Assembly: GCF_006345805.1 (NCBI RefSeq)
Contig: NC_043011.1
Span: 53,952,464-54,016,463, forward strand
Length of the DNA stretch: 64,000 bases
Origin: Octopus sinensis
Lineage: Eukaryota
Direction: 5' to 3'
Shown: in pieces, positions 26,844 through 61,459 of the stretch
Position numbering within the stretch: position 1 is the first letter of the stretch
Layout: each line of letters starts with the position of its first letter
Notes under the pieces: model-generated
Seen by the model: the letters and a program-made list of their open reading frames with translations, nothing else
Database searches by the model: none
What the model was told of the DNA's origin: nothing
Program-made: the position numbers and the translations under genes

Positions 26844-27339
26844 GTTTATCTATCTATCTGTGTGTGTGTGTATATGTATATATATATATATATATAACAG
26901 GAAGCTTTATGAAAATAAACAAAAGACGAAGGCAGGTGGAATATAAACAAACAATTGTATTAGTATAGCGCTCAGGAATATAAATAAAACAAGTCTTTTA
27001 TGTTTCGAGCCTACTCTCTTCAACAGAAAGATACACAGAAAAGAAACACGGAAAGAAACAAGGAGAGAAAAAAAAATGCGTGCAGAAGCTAGCGAATCAA
27101 CATATATATATATATATATATATATTTATACTATTTTACTCTTTAACTTGTTTCAGTCATTTGACTGCGGCCATGCTGGAGCACCGCCTTTAGTCGAGCA
27201 AATCGACCCCGGGACTTATTCTTTGTAAGCCCAGTACTTATTCTATCGGTCTCTTTTGCCGAACCGCTAAGTGACGGGGACATAAACACACCAGCATCGG
27301 TTGTCAGGCAATGCTAGGGGGACAAACACAGACACACAA

Positions 27340-27370
<31 letters not shown>

Positions 27371-28211
27371 CATACATATATACGACAGGCTTCTTTCAGT
27401 TTCCGTCTACCAAATCCACTCACAAGGCATTGGTCGGCCCGGGGCTATAGCAGAAGACACTTGCCCAAGATGCCACGCAGTGGGACTGAACCCGGAACCA
27501 TGTGGTTGGTTAGCAAGCTACTTACCACACAGCCAACACACATATAAATTTTGTAAATAAAATTATAAGTGTTCACCATATTCTCAGTATAGCAAATAGT
27601 CTAATATTAGGGCATATAAGCTCACTTAATGATAAAACCTCACCATTTGTACAGGGACTTATACACCTTACTTTTAGTCTATTTTCTATAGTTAATATAC
27701 AGGGAATGCTTATAATTCTGTTTACAAAACTTCAATCACTGCTGTTTCCTAATTCATGCTAAATTCACACATTTTATATTTTTTCTTACTTGTTTCAGTC
27801 ATCAGCCATGCTGGAGCACTAGCTTAAGGAATTTTACCCAAACTTATCAACCCAGTAATTATTATAATTTTCTTTGTAAAGCCTGGTACTATTATCAGTC
27901 TCTTTTGCCAAACTGCCAAGCTGCTTGGATGTAAATGCACCAACACCAGTAATCAAGCGGTGGTGGGGAACAAACACAGACACACAGATGTATGTTTGTG
28001 TATGTATATATGTGTGTGTGTGTGTAAGTAGCTAGGTGTAGGAGTGGCTGTGTGGTAGGTAGCTTGCTTACAAACCACATGGTTCCAGGTTCAGTTCCAC
28101 TGCATGGCACCTTGGGCAAGTGTCTTCTACTATAGCCTCAGGCCAACCAAAGCCTTGTGAGTGGATTTGGTAGACGGAAATTGAAAGAAGCCTGTCGTAT
28201 ATATGTAAATA

Positions 28212-28772: not shown

Positions 28773-29059
28773 GATATATATATATGTGTGTGTGTGTGTA
28801 TATGTTTGTGTGTCTGTGTTTGTCCCCCCAACTTCGCTTGACCACCAATGCTGGTGTGTTTACGCCCCCGTAACTTAGCAGTTCGGCAAAAGAGACCAAT
28901 AAAATAAGTACTATGCTTACAAAGAATAAGTCCTGGGGTCAATTTGCTCGACTAAAGGTGGTGCTCCAGCATGGCCACATTACATGACTGAAACAAGTAA
29001 AAGAGTAAAAGAGTATGTGCGGATATGTTTACATGTCAATATATGGTGAGTGTGTGTGA

Positions 29060-29104
<45 letters not shown>

Positions 29105-29306
29105 AAATAGAAAGATGAATAATCTTGTAGCAGATTAATCAAAAGTTTAAACGATACCTTGGTAGCAAAAATCACAGCAGAAGACAGCACGGTTGGAGGT
29201 ACAACCATATGGTGTTGCAACCGTGCGTTGGTGCGGATAATTGAATTTTAATATTATTAGTGAATTGAAGAAATGGAGCTGAACGAAGATTGAACAGAAA
29301 TCGTTT

Positions 29307-29399
29307 TATTTCATTCTACACGTGTTTCGAAAGGCACAATTTACCAAAATCCGATTGAATAATGAGACCATATTGTGTCTTTCTCTTCAGGAAGAAATA
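29307..29399 (-). ncRNA. Mirror copy of the hammerhead ribozyme
   Basis: Exact reverse complement of 29538-29630 within the perfect palindrome. Confidence 0.8.
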
Positions 29400-29537
29400 G
29401 GAAATCCGTTGGAAAAAACAAAAACAGAACAGAGGCGGAGCAAAACAAATCGAACTAGGCTCCTGGGCTCTTAGGAGCCTAGTTCGATTTGTTTTGCTCC
29501 GCCTCTGTTCTGTTTTTGTTTTTTCCAACGGATTTCC

Positions 29538-29630
29538 TATTTCTTCCTGAAGAGAAAGACACAATATGGTCTCATTATTCAATCGGATTTTGGTAAATTG
29601 TGCCTTTCGAAACACGTGTAGAATGAAATA
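29538..29630 (+). ncRNA. Minimal type I hammerhead ribozyme (PLE type)
   Basis: Stem I tatttcttc/gaa(t)gaaata; core CTGAAGA (29547-29553); stem II gaaagacacaat/attgtgcctttc (11 of 12 pairs); GAAA (29609-29612); palindromic stem III cacgtg; cleavage triplet GTA ending at 29620. Confidence 0.8.
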
Positions 29631-29680
29631 AAACGATTTCTGTTCAATCTTCGTTCAGCTCCATTTCTTCAATTCACTAA

Positions 29681-29712
<32 letters not shown>

Positions 29713-32700
29713 CTCTTTTACTTGTTTCAGTCATTCGACTGCAGCCATGCTGGAGCACTGCATTTAGTCGAGCAAATCGACCCCGGGACTTATTATTTGT
29801 AAGCCCAGTACTTATTCTATCGGTCTCTTTTGCCGAACCGCTAAGTTATGGCTACGTAAACACACCAGCATCGGTTGTCAAGCAATGCTAGGGGGACAAA
29901 CACAGACACACAAACATACACATACATATATATACATATATACGACAGGCTTCTTTCAGTTTCCGTCTACCAAATCCACTCACAAGGCATTGGTCGGCCC
30001 GGGGCTATAGCAGAAGACACTTGCCCAAGATGCCATGCAGTGGGACTGAACCCGGAACCATGTGGTTGGTTAGCAAGCTACTTACCACACAGCCACTCCT
30101 GCGCCTTATATATATATATAGTTCAAATTTACAGAAAATGAAAGACAAAGACAGGTGAGGGAACAACAAGCAGGTGTATTAGTTTGATGTTTGGAGAGAA
30201 TATAAAAGCCTTTGATGTTTCAAGCCTATGCTCTTTGACAGAAAAGACTGAGAGAAAAAAAAATGTGTAGGGATTAACAGTTCAACATAGTGAAATGACC
30301 CTATATATATATAGATGAGTAAGCACATACATGCTAAACAAGGTGGGAAAAATAGTACTCGAATACTGAAGGTAGAGTAATAGGATATTTATACACCCCT
30401 GACCAGCCCAACCATTCGTGAATACAATATTGTTTGCAAATTGTTTTTGTTACACGTTATTCTGTGTTCTGAATACTTATATTTTAATAAATGTTGCTTA
30501 CTGCAAGTTATGGATGATTCTTTTATGACTTCATTGCTTTCAGGCTTAGCTTAAGGTATTTTCCCGCCCGACATCACAAAATGCGTCTGAATAAACATTG
30601 CCGGACAGCAAACAGGGACTCGGACATTGCTTAGAAAATATTTTTCATTTTTAACCTTGTATATTGTACGCACTAGGGATTTTGACCTTTAAATTTTGGG
30701 GAAATAATGCGGATTATACTCGAGGATTTACGGTATATCAAATGCTATCATTTATTCCTAAGATACTGTGAAGTGAGTTAATTTGGTTGCTTTTTGTAGC
30801 AGGCCAAGGGACTGTGTAGAGGCTCCCACACTGATTTATACTGTGTGGTGAGAAAGGTAACTGTATAGCTCTAAAAATGGTTAGCATATACAAGTGTAGC
30901 ATTGTAGAAAGGGCAAGGCTCTTATCAATCACTCCGCTACTCACTGACCTCAACAGCCAAAAAGAGTAACAGCAACAACAGCAGCAGTAACGAAGAACAA
31001 CAGCGACGACAACAACAACACCATCAAAAGCAAGACTGTCGACATCAGTAGAATGAAAATAATAAGAAAAACACAGAATTGGAATACTGAACTAAACAGT
31101 ATCTGTTTCTTTATTGCCCACAAGGGGCCAAACATAGAGGGGAAAAAACAAGGACAGACAAACGGATTAAGTCGATTACATCGACCCCAGTGCGTAACTG
31201 GTACTTAATTTATCGACCCCCGAAAGGATGAAAGGCAAAGTCGACCTCGGCGGAATTTGAACTCAGAACGCAACGACAGACGCAATACCGCTAAGCATTT
31301 CACCCGGTGTGCTAACGTTTCTGCCAGCTCGCCACCTTTACTAAACAGTATCAATTACTTCATAGTCAATCTATCGACATATATATATATATATATACAC
31401 ACACACGCATACATACATACATATATATATATTTACAAATTGAGATAGGGGTTGTAAATGCAACCCTCCATGGGATAACATATATCCAATATACTGCTAG
31501 TGAAGTACCCAACAAAGTTAATACATAAATGTTAAGAATTGCGATGCAATTAATTCATTTACTGTATTATATGGGCAAAGGTAAAATGTTTTACCACAAA
31601 TTCATAATGCAAAATAAGAAAATGGAGAAATACATCTAAATCAAATATCAACGGTGGTTTAATAAAGTATGTGATTGGGTATTATCTGGTAATTGATATT
31701 TGATTTAGATGTATTTCTCCATTTTCTTATTTTGTATATATATATAGTTGAAATTTACAGAAAAACTAAAGATGAAGACAGGTGTATGAACAACAAGCAG
31801 GTGTATTATATGTATATATATATATATAATAGAGCTATTAGTGAGGGATTATCAATCCAGACAAAATACTTTATAAGTTCTCTGTTAGTACACCAGGCTA
31901 ACAGTATTTTTGAGATTAGTAAAGAACTCCACATATTCTTGTGGCAGGGTCCAAGGTTATAGTTCATCCCCTTTCTATATTGTAAATTCATGGTAGTGCT
32001 CCAGTTATACTGGTTTTTACACAGAGTGGTATACAAGACCAGGTGTAAATAACAGTCATTACATGTTTTTTTCTTTATTGTAGTAAATTTGACTAACGGT
32101 TGCTTTTAGTAGTCATTATAGGTTTGTTATTGATAGGTTGACCTAAAAAGTTAATGTTACTTTCAGAAATGATTCTGATGAAAGCATTAACATTTTAGGT
32201 CATTAAATTAAATTCGTTTTGGCAGATTCTCTCTGACAGAACAAAACTGGGCAGACAATGTAATGACTGTTATCGTTTCCTTCCTCCCTCCCTCCCTCCC
32301 TCTCTTCCTTCCTTGCAGACAGAACAAAACTGGGCAGACAATGTGATGACCTTTATCGTTTTATACCCACACATACGAGAGAAGTGGGAACAGTTAACAA
32401 CGAAAAATAAGATATTATTTATTTATCTCCCTAACAAGTGCGTGCATTATAAACACACCAACCATTGACTCCTTACATCTCTTGATTACACATATAATTG
32501 CATCTTGTATACACACATACAATGGGGAAAGCGAAGACAGTTAACAACAAATAATAACATCTTGAGTGCCGGAAGATGTGGTAGATTTGCAGGCATTCAT
32601 TGGAAACACAGCTAAGGATCTCAGCTGTGTCCCTCCAAAAAGTGCTTCCCGCCTTGGCCGACTGGGATTCAAACCCAGGCTGATCAGGCTGTTGTTTACG

Positions 32701-37481: not shown

Positions 37482-39059
37482 TATATATATATTATATATA
37501 TATATATATATAAATTTGATTTAATTTCTGTAATTGAACTAATTGGATAAGGAAATGGCTGTAGGACAGGAATTTTATTATATTGATTTGAATAAACTGA
37601 TGTCTGTATTTTGATTTCTCTATTTTCTTTCTTCTCATATATATATCAGATCCACAAACAGAAAATACCAAAAATACAGAAAACATCGAAAAGAATGGAA
37701 CAGAATCAGACCCCAAACAGGCTTATACCAAACACGCAGAAGACCTAACACAAATCTGCCAAATATACGATGCCGAAATAAACAAGACAGAAGCACATCT
37801 TCAACAGGGAAATACCAGAAGCATGGAAGATCTACTCACAGAAACCTGTAGTATGTTAAATTCACTTCTCTCAAAAATTGATACGCTCTTTGCAAACATT
37901 GCTTCAACAATAATTACAATCCAAAATATTCTCTCTAAAAATAATCAAGCAAACACAACTGACAACACAAATCTTCTGGCGGGACCACCCCAATCACAAA
38001 GGACAACAAATGACGAAGAAACAAAAACTGACACAAACCAAGAAGAACCTTTAAAACCCCAAGACTGGAACAAACTTCTAAACCAACGCAAATATGCTTA
38101 TTGGAAAAGCATACGCTGTAAGAACAGAGCCAACATATATCAAAACTGGCGGGACTTGAAGAACCCAATACTCCCTAGAAAATTTCTTATCAAAGAAATA
38201 AGGGGTGAAACACTAGAAGAAACAACAATACGTGCAACCCTAGCCCTCTGCCGACTAGAAACGGAAATTTCCCTTCTACAAACACGAAGCGCACACCAGG
38301 AAGATAAGATTAAAACAATCGATACCGTCATAATGGCCGAGATAACAGAAAAGAACAATAAGCAAAACAAAGAAAAACTACAACAATTATGGAAAGAGGA
38401 TACCAAACGAGAGGAGGAAAGATCCAGAATTATGTGGACCAAACAACATGAATGGTTTTTAAACTACGAAAAGAACTATGGGGAAGAATCAATTATGAAG
38501 ACAAAGAAACTACCAAAACAAATGAATAGATACAACAAACCAACACCACAAACATATTGGACTCCCAGACATCAAAATAAGCCCTACCAAACACAAACCA
38601 AAATCCCGCTCCTTACACTGCCGAACCCCCCATTAACAGATACACAAAATATGAAAGACAACCATCAACCCAAAACCCCACAAAAACAAACACACCACCA
38701 GCAAGACGAGCACAATACATACAACCAACAACCTATAACACTTGGAGAGAAGAAATAGAATATGAACAACCACAACACATAACACTGGACACCCTAAAGG
38801 GACACACACATGGAACAATAAACAAGTGGATAGAAATCACACATAACCTACAACAAACATCGAGGAAATCGAAACACCACACAACACCAACCCCATGCAA
38901 CCCCACAAATTTACAAGACGGATAAAAAACAACTCCCACTATCAATACAATACAAGCACAATACATGAACCATCCACCTACCCACAAAGAAACCTGAACC
39001 CCAGTAATAAATATGGCTCAACCAACACAGAAGATGGGAAGAAAACAACTACCAAAGAC

Positions 39060-40650
39060 AAAACAACACATACAGACCACACAGACCACCCCAACTACAA
39101 GAAAACCTAAGAACTGAAAATGGAATTTGGAGACGTAAACACACAACCCATTTTTTTGGGAGAGGATACTTCAACCATACTCCAGACCCAATACACCAAA
39201 AATTCCGGATGAACTCACAAAACATATACAGACCACACAGACCACCCCTACTACTACAAGAAAACCTAAGAACTGAAAATGGAATTTGGAGACGCAACAA
39301 CACAACCCAGTTTTTTGGGAGAGGATACTTCAACCATACTCCAGACCCAATACACCAAAAATTCCGGATGAACTCACAAAACACATACAGACCACACAGA
39401 CCACCCCTACTACTACAAGAAAACCTAAGAACTGAAAATGGAATTTGGAGACGCAACACACAACCCAGTTTTTTGGAGAGGATATTCAACCATACTCCAG
39501 ACCCAATACACCAAAAATTCCGGATGAACTCACAAAACATATACAGACCACCAGACCACCCCTACTACTACAAGAAAACCTAAGAACTGAAAATGGAATT
39601 TGGAGACGCAACAACACAACCCAGTTTTTTTGGAAGGATATACTTCAACCATACTCCAGACCCAATACACCAAAAATTCCGGATGAACTCACAAAACACA
39701 TACAGACCACACAGACCACCCCTATACTACAAGAAAACCTAAGAACTGAAAATGGATTTGGAGACGCAACAACACAACCCAGTTTTTTGGAGAGGATACT
39801 TCAACCATACTCCAGACCCAATACACCAAAAATTCGGATGAACTCACAAAACATATACAGACCACACAGACCACCCCTACTACTACAAGAAAACCTAAGA
39901 ACTGAAAATGGAATTTGGAGACGCAACAACACAACCCAGTTTTTTGGGAGAGGATACTTCAACCATACTCCAGACCCAATACACCAAAAATTCCGGATGA
40001 ACTCACAAAAATCACATACAGACCAACACAGACCACCCCTACTACTACAAGAAAACCTAAGAATGAAAATGGAATTGGAGACGCAACAACACAACCCAGT
40101 TTTTTGGGAGAGGATACTTCAACCATACTCCAGACCCAATACACCAAAAATTCCGGATGAACTCACAAAACACATACAGACCACACAGACCACCCCTACT
40201 ACTACAAGAAAACCTAAGAACTGAAAATGGAATTTGGAGACGCAACAACACAACCCAGTTTTTTGGGAGAGGATACTTCAACCATACTCCAGACCCAATA
40301 CACCAAAAATTCCGGATGAACTCACAAAACACATACAGACCACACAGACCACCCCTACTACTACAAGAAAACCTAAGAACTGAAAATGGAATTTGGAGAC
40401 GCAACAACACAACCCAGTTTTTTGGGAGAGGATACTTCAACCATACTCCAGACCCAATACACCAAAAATTCCGGATGAACTCACAAACACTACAGACCAC
40501 ACAGACCACCCCTACTACTACAAGAAAACCTAAGACCTGAAAATGGAATTTGGAGACGCAACAACAACCCAGTTTTTGGGAGAGGATACTTCAACCATAC
40601 TCCAGACCCAATACACCAAAATTCCGGATGAACTCACAAAACACATAGAC
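39060..40650 (+). repeat. 159-bp tandem repeat x10 inside the PLE
   Basis: The marker cggatgaactcacaaa recurs ten times at about 159-bp spacing. The unit encodes 53 aa without a stop in one frame. Confidence 0.95.
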
Positions 40651-42877
40651 CCCAAATAATAAACTTATCTAAAAGAGAACTTGATGAAAATGAAATGAAC
40701 TACTACTACTAAAAGGCCTCAAATTACACCTACACCACTCCAAACCTCATAGAACTAAAAACTGATATAGACAACTTCAGCATCATCCGCCTTATGGAAT
40801 TCTTTGAAAACAAAGAAACAGAAGATAACTCAATCATAAGAAAAAAATCCCATTTCACCCCTTTACAAGGGAAGTGACAACACCTTGACGCATACATAGA
40901 GACAATATCCAAATTCCCTCTCCACACACACAAATGCAAACAGAATCTCCGCAGAGGAGAAAAACAAGCCTTACAAAAACTAAAAAGACAAGTCAATCAT
41001 TTAAAACAAGCTGACAAAGGTGGAACAATAGTAATATGGATACAGATTACAACAAAGAAAAGATACTGGAGTTACTGAACAACCAGACATACTATAAAGA
41101 GGAACCAACACCACCGGAAGAAAGCAAAAATAAAAAAAATTAGAACTTTAGTCAATGAATACCAGGACTCCTTTACAGATAAGGAGAAAGACTATCTATG
41201 CAACTCACGAACCAAAGAAAGCAATTTTTATGGATTACCTAAAATTCATAAAAGCTCTGAAATACAGAGAGCCATAAAGGAACAGAGGAACCACTATATA
41301 GAATACAAAGGCCTGCAGACCTCACAATGAGACCAATGGTGGCAGGACCCCAGGCACCAACACAAAAACTAAGCCACTTCATAGATATACTCTCAAACCT
41401 TTATGCCCCCCACAGATACCAAGCTACATAAGGGATGACATAGACTCCTCACACACATTCCAAATACAGTCCCGAAAAACACCATACTTTGCAAGCTTTG
41501 ATGTCACAAATCTATACACAAACATACCACACACCCTAGGTCTAGAAGCTATAAAACAACCAATAGAAAAATACAGAGAACTTATAGATGAACGCTTCAA
41601 GACAAACTTTATCACCCAATCCACTCAACTAATACTCGAAGAAAATACTTTCTCATTCAACAAGACATACCGACAGATATGGGTACAAAATTTGCACCTT
41701 CATATGCCAACCTGGTGATGGGCTTCCTGGAGAACAAACTATATGATGAAATAGGGAAAGTCTTCGAACACGACTTCAAAGAAGACATCAAGAAAAAGTG
41801 GAAACGCTACCTCGATGACTGCTTCATCTTTTGGAACAGATCAGAAGAAGACCTACGAATATTCCACAACATCCTCAATACGCTGCACCCATCTATCAAC
41901 TTCACAATAGATATTAGCCACAATGAACTTCCCTTCCTAGACATCAACATCAAAATACACAACTCCATTGTCACTGCAGACATCCACTACAAAAAAACTG
42001 ACACACACCAATACTTAAATTTCCACTCCTGCCACCCATCCCACACAAAAAGAAACATCCCATATAGTATGGCAAGACGAATATGTAGCATAGTAACTGA
42101 TTCACAAATACGACTAATAAGACTAGATGAACTCAAAAACTTCCTCCTAGAGCAAAAATACCCCCTTAAACTAATAGAAATGGAATCACAAGAGCATTAA
42201 AACTAGACATCACACAACTCAGGACACCCAAAACAAAAAACAAAGAAAACACTATCCCTTTTATAAACACGCACAACCCTGGATTTACCAACATCTTTCA
42301 AACCATACATTCAAACCTACCAATAGCCTTACAAAGCCCCAAAATGAAAAACATATTAAACAAATATAGCATAAAAAACAGTAGATGACAGGACAAAAAC
42401 CTAAAGAAACACCTAACAAGAGCGAAATTCTCTTCAGAAACTAAAACGGAATTCTTTGCAAAAGAGTGCGGAGATGGTAGATGTGGGATCTGCAGCAACC
42501 CCACCTACAAATACATAGAGGGAAACAGAGAGATAAGATTTAAAAGTGGTGACATATTCAAAATAAATGCAGATATGAACTGCAAGACGCAGAACGTTAT
42601 ATACTGCATAACCTGCCCCACGTGCAAGGAGAATTACGTTGGTGAAACTGGTAATTCTTTGTGCCAGCGAGCCAGGATTCACCGACAACATATTTGGCAG
42701 GAAGAACTACGCAAAATACCATTAAGTACACACCTAGCTACGTGTGGAGAAGGAAAATTTAAGATCTTTCCCTTCTACAAATGTCCGAAGAACGACACCT
42801 GTTTCAGGAGGAATATGGAAAAATATTTCATAGCTAAGTTCTCCCCCAAATTAAATGGCTGAAACTTTACTCATCAT

Positions 42878-54226: not shown

Positions 54227-54584
54227 TCAGGATGAGATTTGATGAGGGTTTGGCTGCCATTTCTAGCATGTTCAGTAACTTGATAGAGACATCTTTGTTG
54301 GTCTGGATGTCTATTAGTGAATTACAAAGCAAACGATCTCATGGTACTCTAACATACACTGGTTTTTGCTTTCACCAATTCGTCTCTTGATGTTGACCAC
54401 CATTATAATTTCCTTGAAGTTCAGTGATTAATGTATTAATTACATTCATTATGGTTGCAGGCCAAGCCTCTTCAGCTGGGGGAGAGGCATTAACCACAGC
54501 AGAATTGTAAATACTACTGCCCTTGCTGAAGAGGATTGGTCTACAGAGCCCTGTGCTGGCACCAGTTAAAAGGCACTTGTACTG

Positions 54585-55340
54585 GTGCCATGTACAGAAC
54601 ACCTGTGCTGGTATCATGTACAGAACACCTGTGCTGGTATCAAATACAGAACACCTGTGCTGGTATCATGTACAGAACACCTGTGCTGGTATTATGTACA
54701 GAACACCTGTGCTGGTATCATGTACAGAACACCTGTGCTGGTATCATGTACAGAACACCTGTGCTGGTATCATGTACAGAACACCTGTGCTGGTATCATT
54801 TACAGAACACCTGTGCTGGTATCATGTACAGAACACCTGTGCTGGTATCATGTACAGAACACCTGTGCTGGTATCATGTACAAAACACCTGTGCTGGTAT
54901 CATGTACAGAACACCTGTGCTGGTATCATGTACAGAACACCTGTGCTGGTATCATGTACAGACCACCTGTGCTGGTATCATGTACAGACCACCTGTGCTG
55001 ATATCATGTACAGAACACCTGTGCTGGTATCATGTACAGAACACCTGTGCTGGTATCATGTACAGAACACCTGTGCTGGTATCATGTACAGAACACCTGT
55101 GCTGGTATCATGTACAGAACACCTGTGCTGGTATCATGTACAGAACACCTGTGCTGGTATCATGTACAGAACATCTGTGCTGGTATCATGTACAGAACAC
55201 CTGTGCTGGTATCATGTACAGAACACCTGTGCTGGTATCGTGTACAGAACACCTGTGCTGGTATCATGTACAGAACACCTGTGTTGGTATCATGTACAGA
55301 ACACCTGTGCTGGTATCATGTACAGAACACCTGTGCTGGT
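54585..55340 (+). repeat. 26-bp minisatellite, about 29 copies
   Basis: Unit cacctgtgctggtatcatgtacagaa, nearly invariant, embedded in an RTE 3' UTR. Confidence 0.95.
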
Positions 55341-55801
55341 GCCACGTAATAGCACCTGTGCTGGCAGCACTTATAAAGCTCTCATTCTGGCGCCATATAA
55401 CAATACCTGTACCAGTGCCATGTAAAAGTACTTGTGCTGACTCTACTTAAAAAGCTCTTATGCTGGCGTCACATTGTGGTACCCATGCCGGTGCCGTGTA
55501 GAAGAACCCATGCTGGTGCCACATAAAAGCACCCAGCACCCTCTGTAAAGTGGTTGGCATTAGGAAAGGTATCCAGCCATAGAAGCCAAGCCAAATCAGA
55601 CTGGAACTTGGTTTAGCTCTCTGGCTTACTAGCTCTGGTCAAACCGTCCAACCCATGCCAGCATGGAAAACAAATGCTAAATGATAACGATGGTGATGGT
55701 TACATTCATTGTGGCTGTTTTGTATGTTGCATTGAATGATGTGAAAACTACTGGTAACTTCTGTTTAAGAACATCTTTTAAATTATTTTTTGCAGCTGAA
55801 A

Positions 55802-59767: not shown

Positions 59768-61010
59768 TGTATTTTTATAATCTTGTTATAAGTCCACGTT
59801 GTAAAGTGGCATATATGGTGAGTTCAAAGAAGGACATAACAGTGTTAACAAGACACGAGAGTGGTGACAAGACATTCGAAGTTTGCAGTGGACGGTCTTA
59901 GCATGGAAGACCTGTTTAGCTTTCGTGGTTCAGTTGCAACGGCAACTACAGCAGCACTAACAAGAAAAATATTACAACATTACAAACATTTTTAGGGCTT
60001 GCGAACTATTACCAAACATACATGTTTTTATTTTATGCGTAAGCCCGCATAGCTCAGTCGGTAGAGCATCAGACTTTTATGACTGAATCTTCACAGAGTC
60101 ATCTGAGGGTCGTGGGTTTCAAGTCCCCCTGCGGGCAAAGCATTTGTTTTTGACCGATAGAATAAGTACTGGGCTTACAAAGAATAAGTCCCGGGGTCGA
60201 TTTGCTTGACTAAAGGCGGTGCTCCAGCATGGCCGCAGTCAAATGACTGAAACAAGTAAAAGAGTATACGTACCAAACATGCATGAGCTAAGAGCACCCC
60301 TAAACAACCTATTGAAAAAAGGTGTAAATTGGTATTGGTCAGACAGGTGTCAAAAAGCCTTTGAAGAAATTTAAAAAGTTTTAACATCGGGACTGTCATT
60401 AATTGTACTTTGATCCAAATTTAAAATAGTAGTAGCATCAGATGCTAGCAAAAGTGGTACAGAAGCGGTAATTTTACCCAAGTATGGAAATGGTTGCCTA
60501 AAACCCATTGCACATGCTTTACATTCATTGCTGGCTGCTGAAAAGAACTACAGCCAAATTGAGAAGGAGGCACTAGCCATTATTTTTGTGGTGAAAAAAT
60601 TACACAAATTCATACGTGGAAGGAAATTCAGTCTGCAAACAGATCACCGCCCATTGTTATCAATTTATGGATCGGAAAAGGGTCTCCCCACACACATACT
60701 CAACCGATTGCAGTGCTGTGGGACGATCCTGCTAAATTATGATTTTAAGATGGAATTTCTACCATCGAAAAAATTAGGGCATGCGGATGGGCTGTCAAGA
60801 TTGATCCCTAAATACAAAGAACTGTTAGAAGATACAGTAATAGCAGCATTAAAAGGCAAAACTGAAATAAAAAATACACTCTGCAATGTAGTATGCGAAT
60901 TAGCTGTCACTTTAGAAGAAATAAAAATTAAAGCAGAGAAGGGTGTGTTCGTAATAGAAATGAAAAAGATAGTTAAGTTTGAAACAAATACAAAAACTCA
61001 CGTAACTGAG
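59766..61010 (+). mobile_element. Ty3/Gypsy LTR retrotransposon remnant
   Basis: RNase H motifs SDAS, AEKNYSQIEKEALAIIF, TDHRPL, HADGLSRL (60420-60810). PBS-like TGGTGAC at ~59862 followed by a degenerate gag start. Interrupted by a tRNA and a SINE. Confidence 0.8.
60043..60137 (+). tRNA. tRNA-Lys(UUU) with 21-nt intron (60080-60100); possibly a pseudogene
   Basis: Acceptor stem GCCCGCA/TGCGGGC, D-arm TAGCTCAGTCGGTAGAGCA, anticodon arm TCAGA-CT-TTT-A^A-TCTGA, intron after position 37, oligo-T terminator downstream. The T-arm has one extra T and one stem mismatch. Confidence 0.85.
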
Positions 61011-61459
61011 CAGTATTAATAACAAGGGGTAATATTTATGCCCACTTAAATACAGATGTTCTGTTAGAACAAATTATACTTTAGTTGATACCATGAGAGA
61101 AACTCTCATTTTGGTTTTTGGTGCAAAATGCAAAACAGCCAAAGCAGAAAAAAAAAAAAGAAAAAGAAAAAGAACAATTTTGTACTAAAAGCCAATATGA
61201 GAGATTCTCTCTTGTTAACTAGTGCAGTATAGTTTGTTCCAACAGAACATTCACGTTTAAGTGGTGATAAATATTACCTCTCTATTGCTACAGTGTTCGC
61301 TTCCACCTCTACATCATTGCTCAAATGCTGTTACAATAACCATCATCATTCAACTCTGTCTCTTCATCTCAGTCATAGCATTACAGATTATAACTTTTTT
61401 CCACTTGCCACACATCTGTCTGTTGCTAATAGTTGTTGTATTTTCACTTTCTATTCCAG

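What the first reader, a model, noticed from the sequence alone, without database searches (positions are those of the whole stretch)
29101..29688. Perfect 440-bp palindrome encoding a hammerhead ribozyme on both strands
Seen: 216-bp arms with no mismatch found and an 8-nt loop, in (TA)n. Each arm carries a complete hammerhead core (CUGAAGA, long stem II, GAAA, palindromic cacgtg stem III, GUA, stem I). Known: minimal type I hammerheads with palindromic stem III typify Penelope-like pLTRs and are thought to work as dimers; PLEs also generate inverted pLTRs. Inference: this is a young, protein-free PLE-derived foldback unit. A read-through transcript from either side would contain the ribozyme and its own antisense, so it must choose between self-cleavage and a 216-bp dsRNA (Dicer/ADAR substrate). 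It could be a non-autonomous retrozyme-like family. Stem II is unusually long for a minimal hammerhead.
Basis: partly seen in the sequence, partly recalled or inferred. Interest (0 to 1): 0.85.

Follow-up and report, generated by a model that had tools for sequence, protein, structure and literature searches.

The report
Mirror-image Penelope retrotransposon insertion with hammerheads
The palindrome is two copies of the hammerhead-bearing end of a Penelope-like retrotransposon joined head to head, a known insertion form that is common in this genome, and the ends of its sister copies suggest that each such insert is likely built from two separate reverse transcripts of the element's uncut RNA leader.

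Summary
Observation confirmed: 216-nt perfect arms, 8-nt spacer, a type I hammerhead motif on each strand. It is not an independent retrozyme. It is a 588-bp insertion of a young, abundant Penelope-like element (Hydra-clade-like; open frames of about 900 aa exist elsewhere in the genome) into (TA)n: one arm carries a 148-nt tail, the other does not. Head-to-head pairs with palindromic joints, a one-sided tail and opposite-strand hammerheads are in print. The centre here is unique among 7 like loci, so the palindrome does not copy itself. New details: 7,300 matches of a hammerhead with a 53-55-nt covarying stem II; 32 of 37 pairs are one tailed plus one tail-less arm; either arm can be longer; many arms stop at one initiator-like site, often with an extra G (128 G, 50 A, 11 T). 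This points to two cDNAs primed internally on the 5' leader of an uncut, probably capped sense RNA, against published antisense self-priming. No cleavage, transcript or spanning read was shown. The scan noted a similar palindromic PLE stump in another genome (e1-7858806).

The parts
29061..29101 (.). (TA)n target, left side
29101..29248 (-). 148-nt one-sided tail: continuation of the pLTR that in tandem copies runs on to about 50 nt before the ORF's ATG
29249..29464 (-). left arm: pLTR copy of the tailed arm, starting at +20 from the inferred transcription start
29317..29390 (-). hammerhead motif, minus-strand copy
29465..29472 (+). 8-nt spacer; native pLTR sequence that belongs to the right arm (+12 to +19), with one shared base at 29464
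29473..29688 (+). right arm: tail-less pLTR copy ending at the family's second fixed 3' end
29547..29620 (+). hammerhead motif, plus-strand copy: core 29547-29553, 55-nt stem II domain 29554-29608, GAAA 29609-29612, self-complementary octamer 29612-29619, predicted cut after 29620
29683..29712 (.). (TA)n target, right side; no target-site duplication can be read in the microsatellite

Best explanation
The 588-bp unit is a single insertion of a Penelope-like retrotransposon made of two head-to-head copies of its hammerhead-bearing pLTR, one with and one without a 148-nt tail, and it likely arose from two separate reverse transcripts of the element's uncut RNA leader. Steps: (1, shown) the sequence is the pLTR of an RT-EN element with intact natural copies; (2, shown) family copies end 3' at one of two fixed points, about +236 and +384 from a sharp 5' boundary, nearly always in (TA)n, and pairs are one of each; (3, inferred) the element's endonuclease cuts both strands of (TA)n and each DNA end primes reverse transcription at one of the two sites, as the anole element does in vitro; (4, inferred) when the sites in the 5' pLTR and leader are used, both cDNAs run off the RNA's 5' end, often adding a C that reads as an extra G; (5, inferred) the two cDNA 3' ends are trimmed and joined, which makes a new palindrome centre each time; (6, inferred) the hammerhead is a dimer-dependent ribozyme that is mostly uncut on the RNAs that are copied. 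This locus is a likely dead-on-arrival product that has lost the start site itself.
For: Parent element: 51 matches at 97-100% from 40 of 1440 candidates scored; direct pLTR-ORF-pLTR copy L049 and inverted-pLTR copy L034; open frames of 908 and 899 aa in L102 and L103; RT-like and GIY-YIG-labelled clusters at 0.94-0.98 in the Atlas. Orientation: among the first 100 of 7,300 hammerhead matches, 19 neighbour pairs lie within 5 kb and all 19 are head-to-head, 9 with gaps of 29-154 nt (this locus would score 152). Ends: of 122 distinct hits, 53 end at the tail, 53 at the short end, 13 run into the ORF, 3 other; 32 of 37 pairs are tail+short, 1 tail+tail, 1 short+short, 3 with another end (loci came from several searches, not a random sample). 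The short arm reaches further 5' in 17 of 30 pairs, the tail arm in 11, 2 equal (one mis-paired row dropped), which one folded-back cDNA primed at the tail cannot give. 5' boundary: of 100 consecutive arms on C1, 56 match the upstream motif exactly; of the other 44, 27 stop within 14 nt of the anchor, 1 at 30 nt, 16 continue. Base before that boundary genome-wide: native C 1783, G 128, A 50, T 11; 30 of 30 G loci inspected are true junctions, 14 on tail arms and 16 on short arms, both arms at one locus, 25 with a partner of the other type and none of the same type. Uncut template: 3324 of 3906 copies read through the predicted cut. Two internal start sites, cutting and extension of both strands, and use of uncleaved RNA were shown in vitro for the anole PLE (PMC11167929).
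Against: This locus itself has no extra G and starts 11 and 19 nt inside the boundary, so its origin from the leader is inferred from the family. In a second sample anchored downstream only 3 of 30 arms ended near the boundary, 8 ended earlier and 19 ran beyond it. The boundary lies beside short self-complementary motifs that could favour joining there on their own. An extra G can come from terminal transferase activity at any template end, not only a cap (own knowledge). No RNA 5'-end data, no cleavage data, no spanning reads. Pfam names no RT or GIY-YIG domain in the ORF and the PDB search found nothing. The tail (148 nt) is far longer than the 30-40 nt in print, so the link to the two in vitro start sites is by analogy.
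Confidence: 0.72

Rival explanations
1. Same element, but both arms are ordinary 5'-truncated cDNAs primed at the 3' pLTR, and they meet here by chance or because short self-complementary motifs at this spot favour joining.
For: Truncation points are spread along the whole element; two of the 7 near-centre loci are joined exactly at a self-complementary hexamer; this copy lacks the extra G.
Against: 27 of 100 arms stop in one 14-nt zone and 1 in the next 26 nt; G excess at exactly that base, 128 against 50 A and 11 T, also where the partner arm ends far away.
Confidence: 0.12
2. One cDNA (or an antisense RNA template) folds back and primes on itself, as proposed for rotifer Penelopes.
For: Arms are identical here; in 21 of 21 pairs examined they never differ at a shared polymorphic site (the script stopped after 21 of 31 pairs); 12 of 30 pairs have arms within 40 nt of equal length (some loci were chosen for short centres). 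Proposed in PMC3846280.
Against: Here the tail-less arm holds 8 native bases that the tailed arm lacks, and the tailed arm holds 148 that the other lacks, so neither can be a copy of the other; the short arm is longer in 17 of 30 pairs; the extra G occurs on both arm types and on both arms of one locus, which needs a sense template with a 5' end.
Confidence: 0.1
3. A non-autonomous, retrozyme-like family that multiplies as a palindromic unit.
For: About 600-bp protein-free palindromes with hammerheads are common: 9 pairs among 100 matches. Retrozymes are argued to derive from pLTRs (10.64898/2026.07.22.740005).
Against: 7 of 7 loci with a centre near this one have different centres; no head-to-tail pair within 5 kb among 100 matches, whereas non-LTR retrozymes are defined as tandem repeats; the sequence is 97-100% identical to the pLTR of ORF-bearing copies.
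Confidence: 0.04
4. Assembly or library foldback chimera.
For: Perfect palindromes are a known artefact class (own knowledge); no read spanning the centre was seen (contigs only).
Against: The asymmetry follows a family-wide rule (tail on one arm, fixed short end into (TA)n); the spacer is native sequence of one arm; the flanks are not mirrored.
Confidence: 0.02

Closest known systems
Hydra clade of C-terminal EN+ Penelope-like elements (Craig et al. 2021, PMC8557442; includes Hydra-1_Obim and Penelope-13_HM)
   Same: Single RT-EN ORF, DKT motif, CxxC and CxH around the conserved E, no CCHH, (TA)n targets, hammerhead near the 3' end; Penelope-13_HM carries an inverted 5'-truncated copy with the hammerhead on both strands.
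   Different: RWL in place of RWK; no CxCX5C linker in 7 of 7 ORFs against 45 of 58 relatives; ORF about 900 aa with N/S-rich inserts; stem II domain 53-55 nt against at most about 25 nt in the listed Hydra hammerheads; its hammerhead differs from that of Hydra-1_Obim (by eye).
Inverted pLTR insertions with one-sided tail (Adineta vaga Penelopes, PMC3846280; Fig. 2 of PMC8557442)
   Same: Head-to-head pLTRs, palindromic joints, tail on one of them, Inr-like sequence in the pLTR.
   Different: Tail 148 nt rather than 30-40; a near-strict one-tail-one-short rule and an extra G at a fixed 5' boundary, which favour two sense-template cDNAs over antisense self-priming.
Minimal PLE hammerheads (Cervera and De la Pena 2014, PMC4209133)
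   Same: Type I, small palindromic helix III, predicted dimer; dual motifs 100-700 bp apart on opposite strands were already reported and tied to truncated PLEs.
   Different: Helix II of 12 pairs plus a distal hairpin rather than 6-8 pairs; no unpaired base between A9 and G10.1.
PAc, Poseidon element of Anolis (Frangieh et al. 2024, PMC11167929)
   Same: AT-rich target, both strands cut and extended, two internal start sites that bound the tail, uncleaved RNA as template.
   Different: Other clade; there both strands used the same sites without bias, the hammerhead overlaps the start codon, and no assignment of one site to each strand was reported in the parts read.
Non-LTR retrozymes (10.64898/2026.07.22.740005)
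   Same: Non-coding, type I hammerhead, pLTR-related.
   Different: Retrozymes are head-to-tail tandem units; this is a head-to-head pair with a unique centre.

Membership tests
Penelope-like element (EN+) | pLTR repeated around a single RT + C-terminal GIY-YIG ORF | tested here: met
   L049 direct, L103 direct, L034 and L102 with inverted copy; YRDD and V/IY...YV/IG motifs; Atlas labels. Pfam gave no RT or GIY-YIG hit.
Penelope-like element (EN+) | inverted 5'-truncated copy and one-sided tail | tested here: met
   tail is 148 nt, longer than the published 30-40
Penelope-like element (EN+) | telomerase-like RT fold or phylogenetic placement | not tested
   no model was obtained and no tree with reference PLEs was built
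Hydra clade | DKT in place of DKG | tested here: met
   6 of 7 ORFs; the seventh reads DMT
Hydra clade | N-terminal RWK motif | tested here: inconclusive
   RIRWL in the 6 of 7 ORFs that include the region; RWK itself in only 29 of 58 relatives
Hydra clade | [quoted passage not shown] | tested here: met
   CxxC-E and CxH in 7 of 7; absence of CCHH judged by eye
Hydra clade | CxCX5C linker before the EN | tested here: not met
   0 of 7 against 45 of 58 relatives; hence 'Hydra-like', not filed as a regular member
Hydra clade | insertion into (TA)n | tested here: met
   103 of 106 fixed ends pass a TA-run filter
Type I hammerhead ribozyme | conserved core CUGANGA / GAAA / NUH with three helices | tested here: met
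   88% of 592 cells paired, 15 of 33 pairs with changes on both sides, 0 of 500 shuffles reach the covariation score; the structure was derived from this alignment and the rows are related
Type I hammerhead ribozyme | Rfam Hammerhead_1 gathering score | tested here: not met
   14.8 of 34 bits; the model has no room for a 55-nt stem II
Type I hammerhead ribozyme | self-cleavage | not testable with these tools
   no pile-up of 5' ends at the predicted cut
Non-LTR retrozyme | head-to-tail tandem units each with a hammerhead | tested here: not met
   0 same-strand pairs within 5 kb among 100 matches
Non-LTR retrozyme | circular RNA | not testable with these tools
   only contigs were available

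The most novel reading that the evidence does not exclude
This family records the missing steps of Penelope-like transposition: a two-headed RNP primes one cDNA at +384 on one DNA strand and another at +236 on the other, on capped, uncleaved sense RNA, and hundreds of 600-bp palindromes are copies of the mRNA's 5' leader, not truncated 3' ends. The long-stem-II hammerhead would serve mainly as an RNA dimer and protein-binding handle through its self-complementary helix III, and (TA)n targeting would not need the cysteine linker.
Probability: 0.3. Interest if true: 0.75.

Novelty: new variant of a known kind. Interest (0 to 1): 0.5.

Why it matters
How PLEs make inverted pLTRs and a one-sided tail, whether the template is sense or antisense, and what the hammerhead is for are stated as open in PMC8557442, PMC3846280 and PMC11167929. 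A young family with thousands of copies gives exact coordinates to test: a 5' boundary, two start sites 148 nt apart, one per arm, and an uncut template. It also adds a hammerhead variant with a 55-nt stem II that Rfam misses, and a case of (TA)n targeting without the linker proposed to cause it. Hundreds of perfect 200-bp hairpin loci could feed dsRNA pathways if transcribed; that was not tested. The locus itself is an ordinary product of a known process.

Tried and rejected
Rfam: only miRNA-hairpin artefacts on the palindrome and a sub-threshold Hammerhead_1 hit on one arm; the whole window gives one tRNA. Reads: 4 of 24 listed runs laid, all contigs; the centre was neither confirmed nor refuted and RNA status is only guessed. 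Pfam and PDB do not recognise the ORF; no structure model was obtained. A first pair count used a mis-registered structure and is discarded; one search replaces it. Genomic footprint of cleavage: 4 of the first 100 copies seemed to begin at the predicted cut, but a strict genome-wide pattern gave 17 hits, 9 clear junctions, 1 unclear and 7 small mutations, against 35 raw hits one base downstream, 14 of them not simple deletions and not inspected, so there is no evidence of a pile-up. The count ratio alone (1286 and 1607 of 2458) was too confounded by mismatches, so 44 loci were inspected. Two-RNA test: no pair with arms from different subfamilies in 21 examined, so one RNA versus two is unresolved. 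Core versus flank conservation is only modest (core 0.93-1.0, flanks 0.70-0.78). An ORF seeming to start inside the inverted pLTR of L004/L034 is a chance open frame across an inversion joint. An intron in the leader (5 upstream ATGs) was not tested.

Full report
Observation. The palindrome is as described: arms 29249-29464 and 29473-29688, 216 nt, 100% complementary, 8 nt apart, between (TA)n runs. A hammerhead core with a 55-nt stem II domain lies at 29547-29620 (+) and 29390-29317 (-), with no match in 100 shuffles. Rfam sees it only weakly (14.8 bits) and the monomer folds no better than shuffles. The 148 nt at 29101-29248 are not mirrored.

Parent element. A search of the own genome with one arm gave 51 matches at 97-100% identity from 40 of 1440 candidates scored. 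Longer fetches show the sequence as the pLTR of an RT-EN element: L049 and L103 have direct pLTRs around the ORF, L034 and L102 have an inverted copy at the 5' side. Open frames of 899-908 aa exist as natural copies, and relatives go down to about 60% amino-acid identity. Pfam and PDB do not recognise the protein. Its identity rests on Atlas clusters with RT and GIY-YIG labels, on 110 homologues at 30-43% and on motifs that match the Hydra clade as defined in PMC8557442 section 11: DKT, CxxC and CxH without CCHH, (TA)n targets. The CxCX5C linker is missing in 7 of 7 ORFs against 45 of 58 relatives, so I call it Hydra-like. In tandem copies the 148-nt piece runs on to about 50 nt before the ATG: it is the PLE tail.

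The palindrome is a product, not a family. A pattern for this hammerhead type has 3646 + 3654 exact matches and 0 for the reversed control. Among the first 100, 19 neighbour pairs lie within 5 kb; all are head-to-head and 9 have gaps of 29-154 nt. Seven loci have a centre within 30 nt of this one, and all seven centres differ. Tandem units, which define non-LTR retrozymes, were not seen. Opposite-strand hammerheads 100-700 bp apart, head-to-head pLTRs with palindromic joints and a tail on one of them and a Hydra consensus with the hammerhead on both strands are in print.

The ribozyme. Nineteen copies from subfamilies across the range align with an invariant GAAAC, a near-invariant CUGANGA and a stem II domain of 53-55 nt. 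A structure with stem I, a 12-pair stem II, a distal hairpin and helix III has 88% of 592 cells paired, 15 of 33 pairs with changes on both sides, and a covariation score reached by 0 of 500 shuffles and far above slid controls (RNAalifold found stem II on its own). The rows are related and the structure was fitted to them, so this is support, not proof. The central dinucleotide of helix III is CG, UA or UG in 7260 of 7300 matches and CA in 40, as a dimer would need. Metazoan PLE hammerheads cleave poorly and need dimers or protein. Here 3324 of 3906 copies read through the predicted cut and no pile-up of 5' ends at the cut survived a control.

How the insert was likely made. Copies end 3' at one of two points, the tail end or a point 148 nt earlier, almost always in (TA)n; 32 of 37 pairs are one of each, 1 tail+tail, 1 short+short, 3 other (non-random loci). 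Either arm may reach further 5' (17 short, 11 tail, 2 equal of 30, one mis-paired row dropped). At this locus each arm has bases that the other lacks, so neither is a fold-back copy of the other. Arms never differed at shared polymorphic sites in 21 pairs (run incomplete), so they come from one RNA or one source locus. The 5' ends pile up: of 100 consecutive arms, 27 stop within 14 nt of an anchor and 1 in the next 26 nt; most stop at the A of CAGTT, which resembles an initiator (consensus recalled). A second sample anchored further downstream had 3 of 30 there, 8 earlier and 19 beyond. The base before this A is the native C in 1783 copies, G in 128, A in 50, T in 11. Thirty of 30 G loci inspected are junctions; the G sits on tail arms (14) and short arms (16), on both arms at one locus, and the partner is of the other type in 25 and never of the same type. 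An extra G is the recalled mark of reverse transcription reaching a capped or blunt RNA 5' end. From this site the cut lies at +168, the short end at +236, the tail end at +384 and the ATG at +434. The window's arms are +12 to +235 and +20 to +383. I infer that both strands of a (TA)n cut primed at the two sites, as the anole element does in vitro, here on the 5' leader, and that the two run-off cDNAs were trimmed and joined. This conflicts with self-priming on an antisense template as proposed in PMC3846280.

The dsRNA idea. Any transcript crossing the centre makes the antisense arm first, and the hairpin (-418.7 kcal/mol) outweighs the ribozyme fold, so read-through would be expected to give dsRNA without cleavage. 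The locus has lost the inferred start base. Expression was not shown: the runs were contigs of guessed type.

Literature seen. PMC8557442: passages, section 11, part 2 of the supplement and supplement searches. PMC11167929: parts 1-2 of 4. PMC4209133: parts 1-2 of 4. PMC3846280 and PMC13282606: passages. 10.64898/2026.07.22.740005: part 1 of 5; its supplements were not available and could list related motifs. Searches found no paper describing a one-site-per-arm rule, an extra G at PLE 5' ends or a 55-nt stem II in Hydra elements; the library lacks most subscription papers, including much of the Drosophila Penelope work, and two plant PLE hammerheads in the supplement of PMC8557442 also have long stem II regions.

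Verdict. Real feature, known kind: an inverted-pLTR insertion of a PLE. The variant details (long stem II, long tail, strict pairing of ends, fixed 5' boundary with extra G, missing linker) are new as far as searched and make an open mechanistic question testable. Interest 0.5.

Noticed in passing
window 37601-42200: Pieces of a second, unrelated PLE-type element: a 201-aa RT fragment with YLDD (RVT_1, E 0.001), an upstream 385-aa frame and a 10-copy 159-bp tandem array at 39065-40647. PLE type is judged from recalled motifs.
   Followed up: partly
window 60414-61019 and 60043-60137: RNase H-like fragment of an LTR retrotransposon (RT_RNaseH, E 4.6e-21) next to a tRNA match.
   Followed up: no
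window 28775-28979, 29713-30106, 27113-27535: High-copy SINE-like repeats flank the insertion on both sides in opposite orientation (very high depth). From recall these repeats and the 2.7-Gb genome suggest an octopod; no call names the host.
   Followed up: no
G000, genome-wide: The two central bases of the helix III octamer stay self-complementary: CG or UA 5760, UG 1500, CA 40 of 7300 matches; CG, UG, UA in 18 of 18 aligned rows. They cannot pair within one strand, so this favours a dimer, though it reflects few founder lineages.
   Followed up: yes
L102, L103, L085, L087 versus L091, L092: N/S-rich inserts between RT and EN have grown by about 100 aa in the youngest subfamilies, recalling the asparagine-rich inserts of rotifer Penelopes.
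   Followed up: no
L101:3526-3599 (-): A different hammerhead-like motif with a 57-nt stem II domain, unrelated in sequence to this family.
   Followed up: no
window 54574-55364: 30-copy 26-bp tandem array at 96% identity.
   Followed up: no
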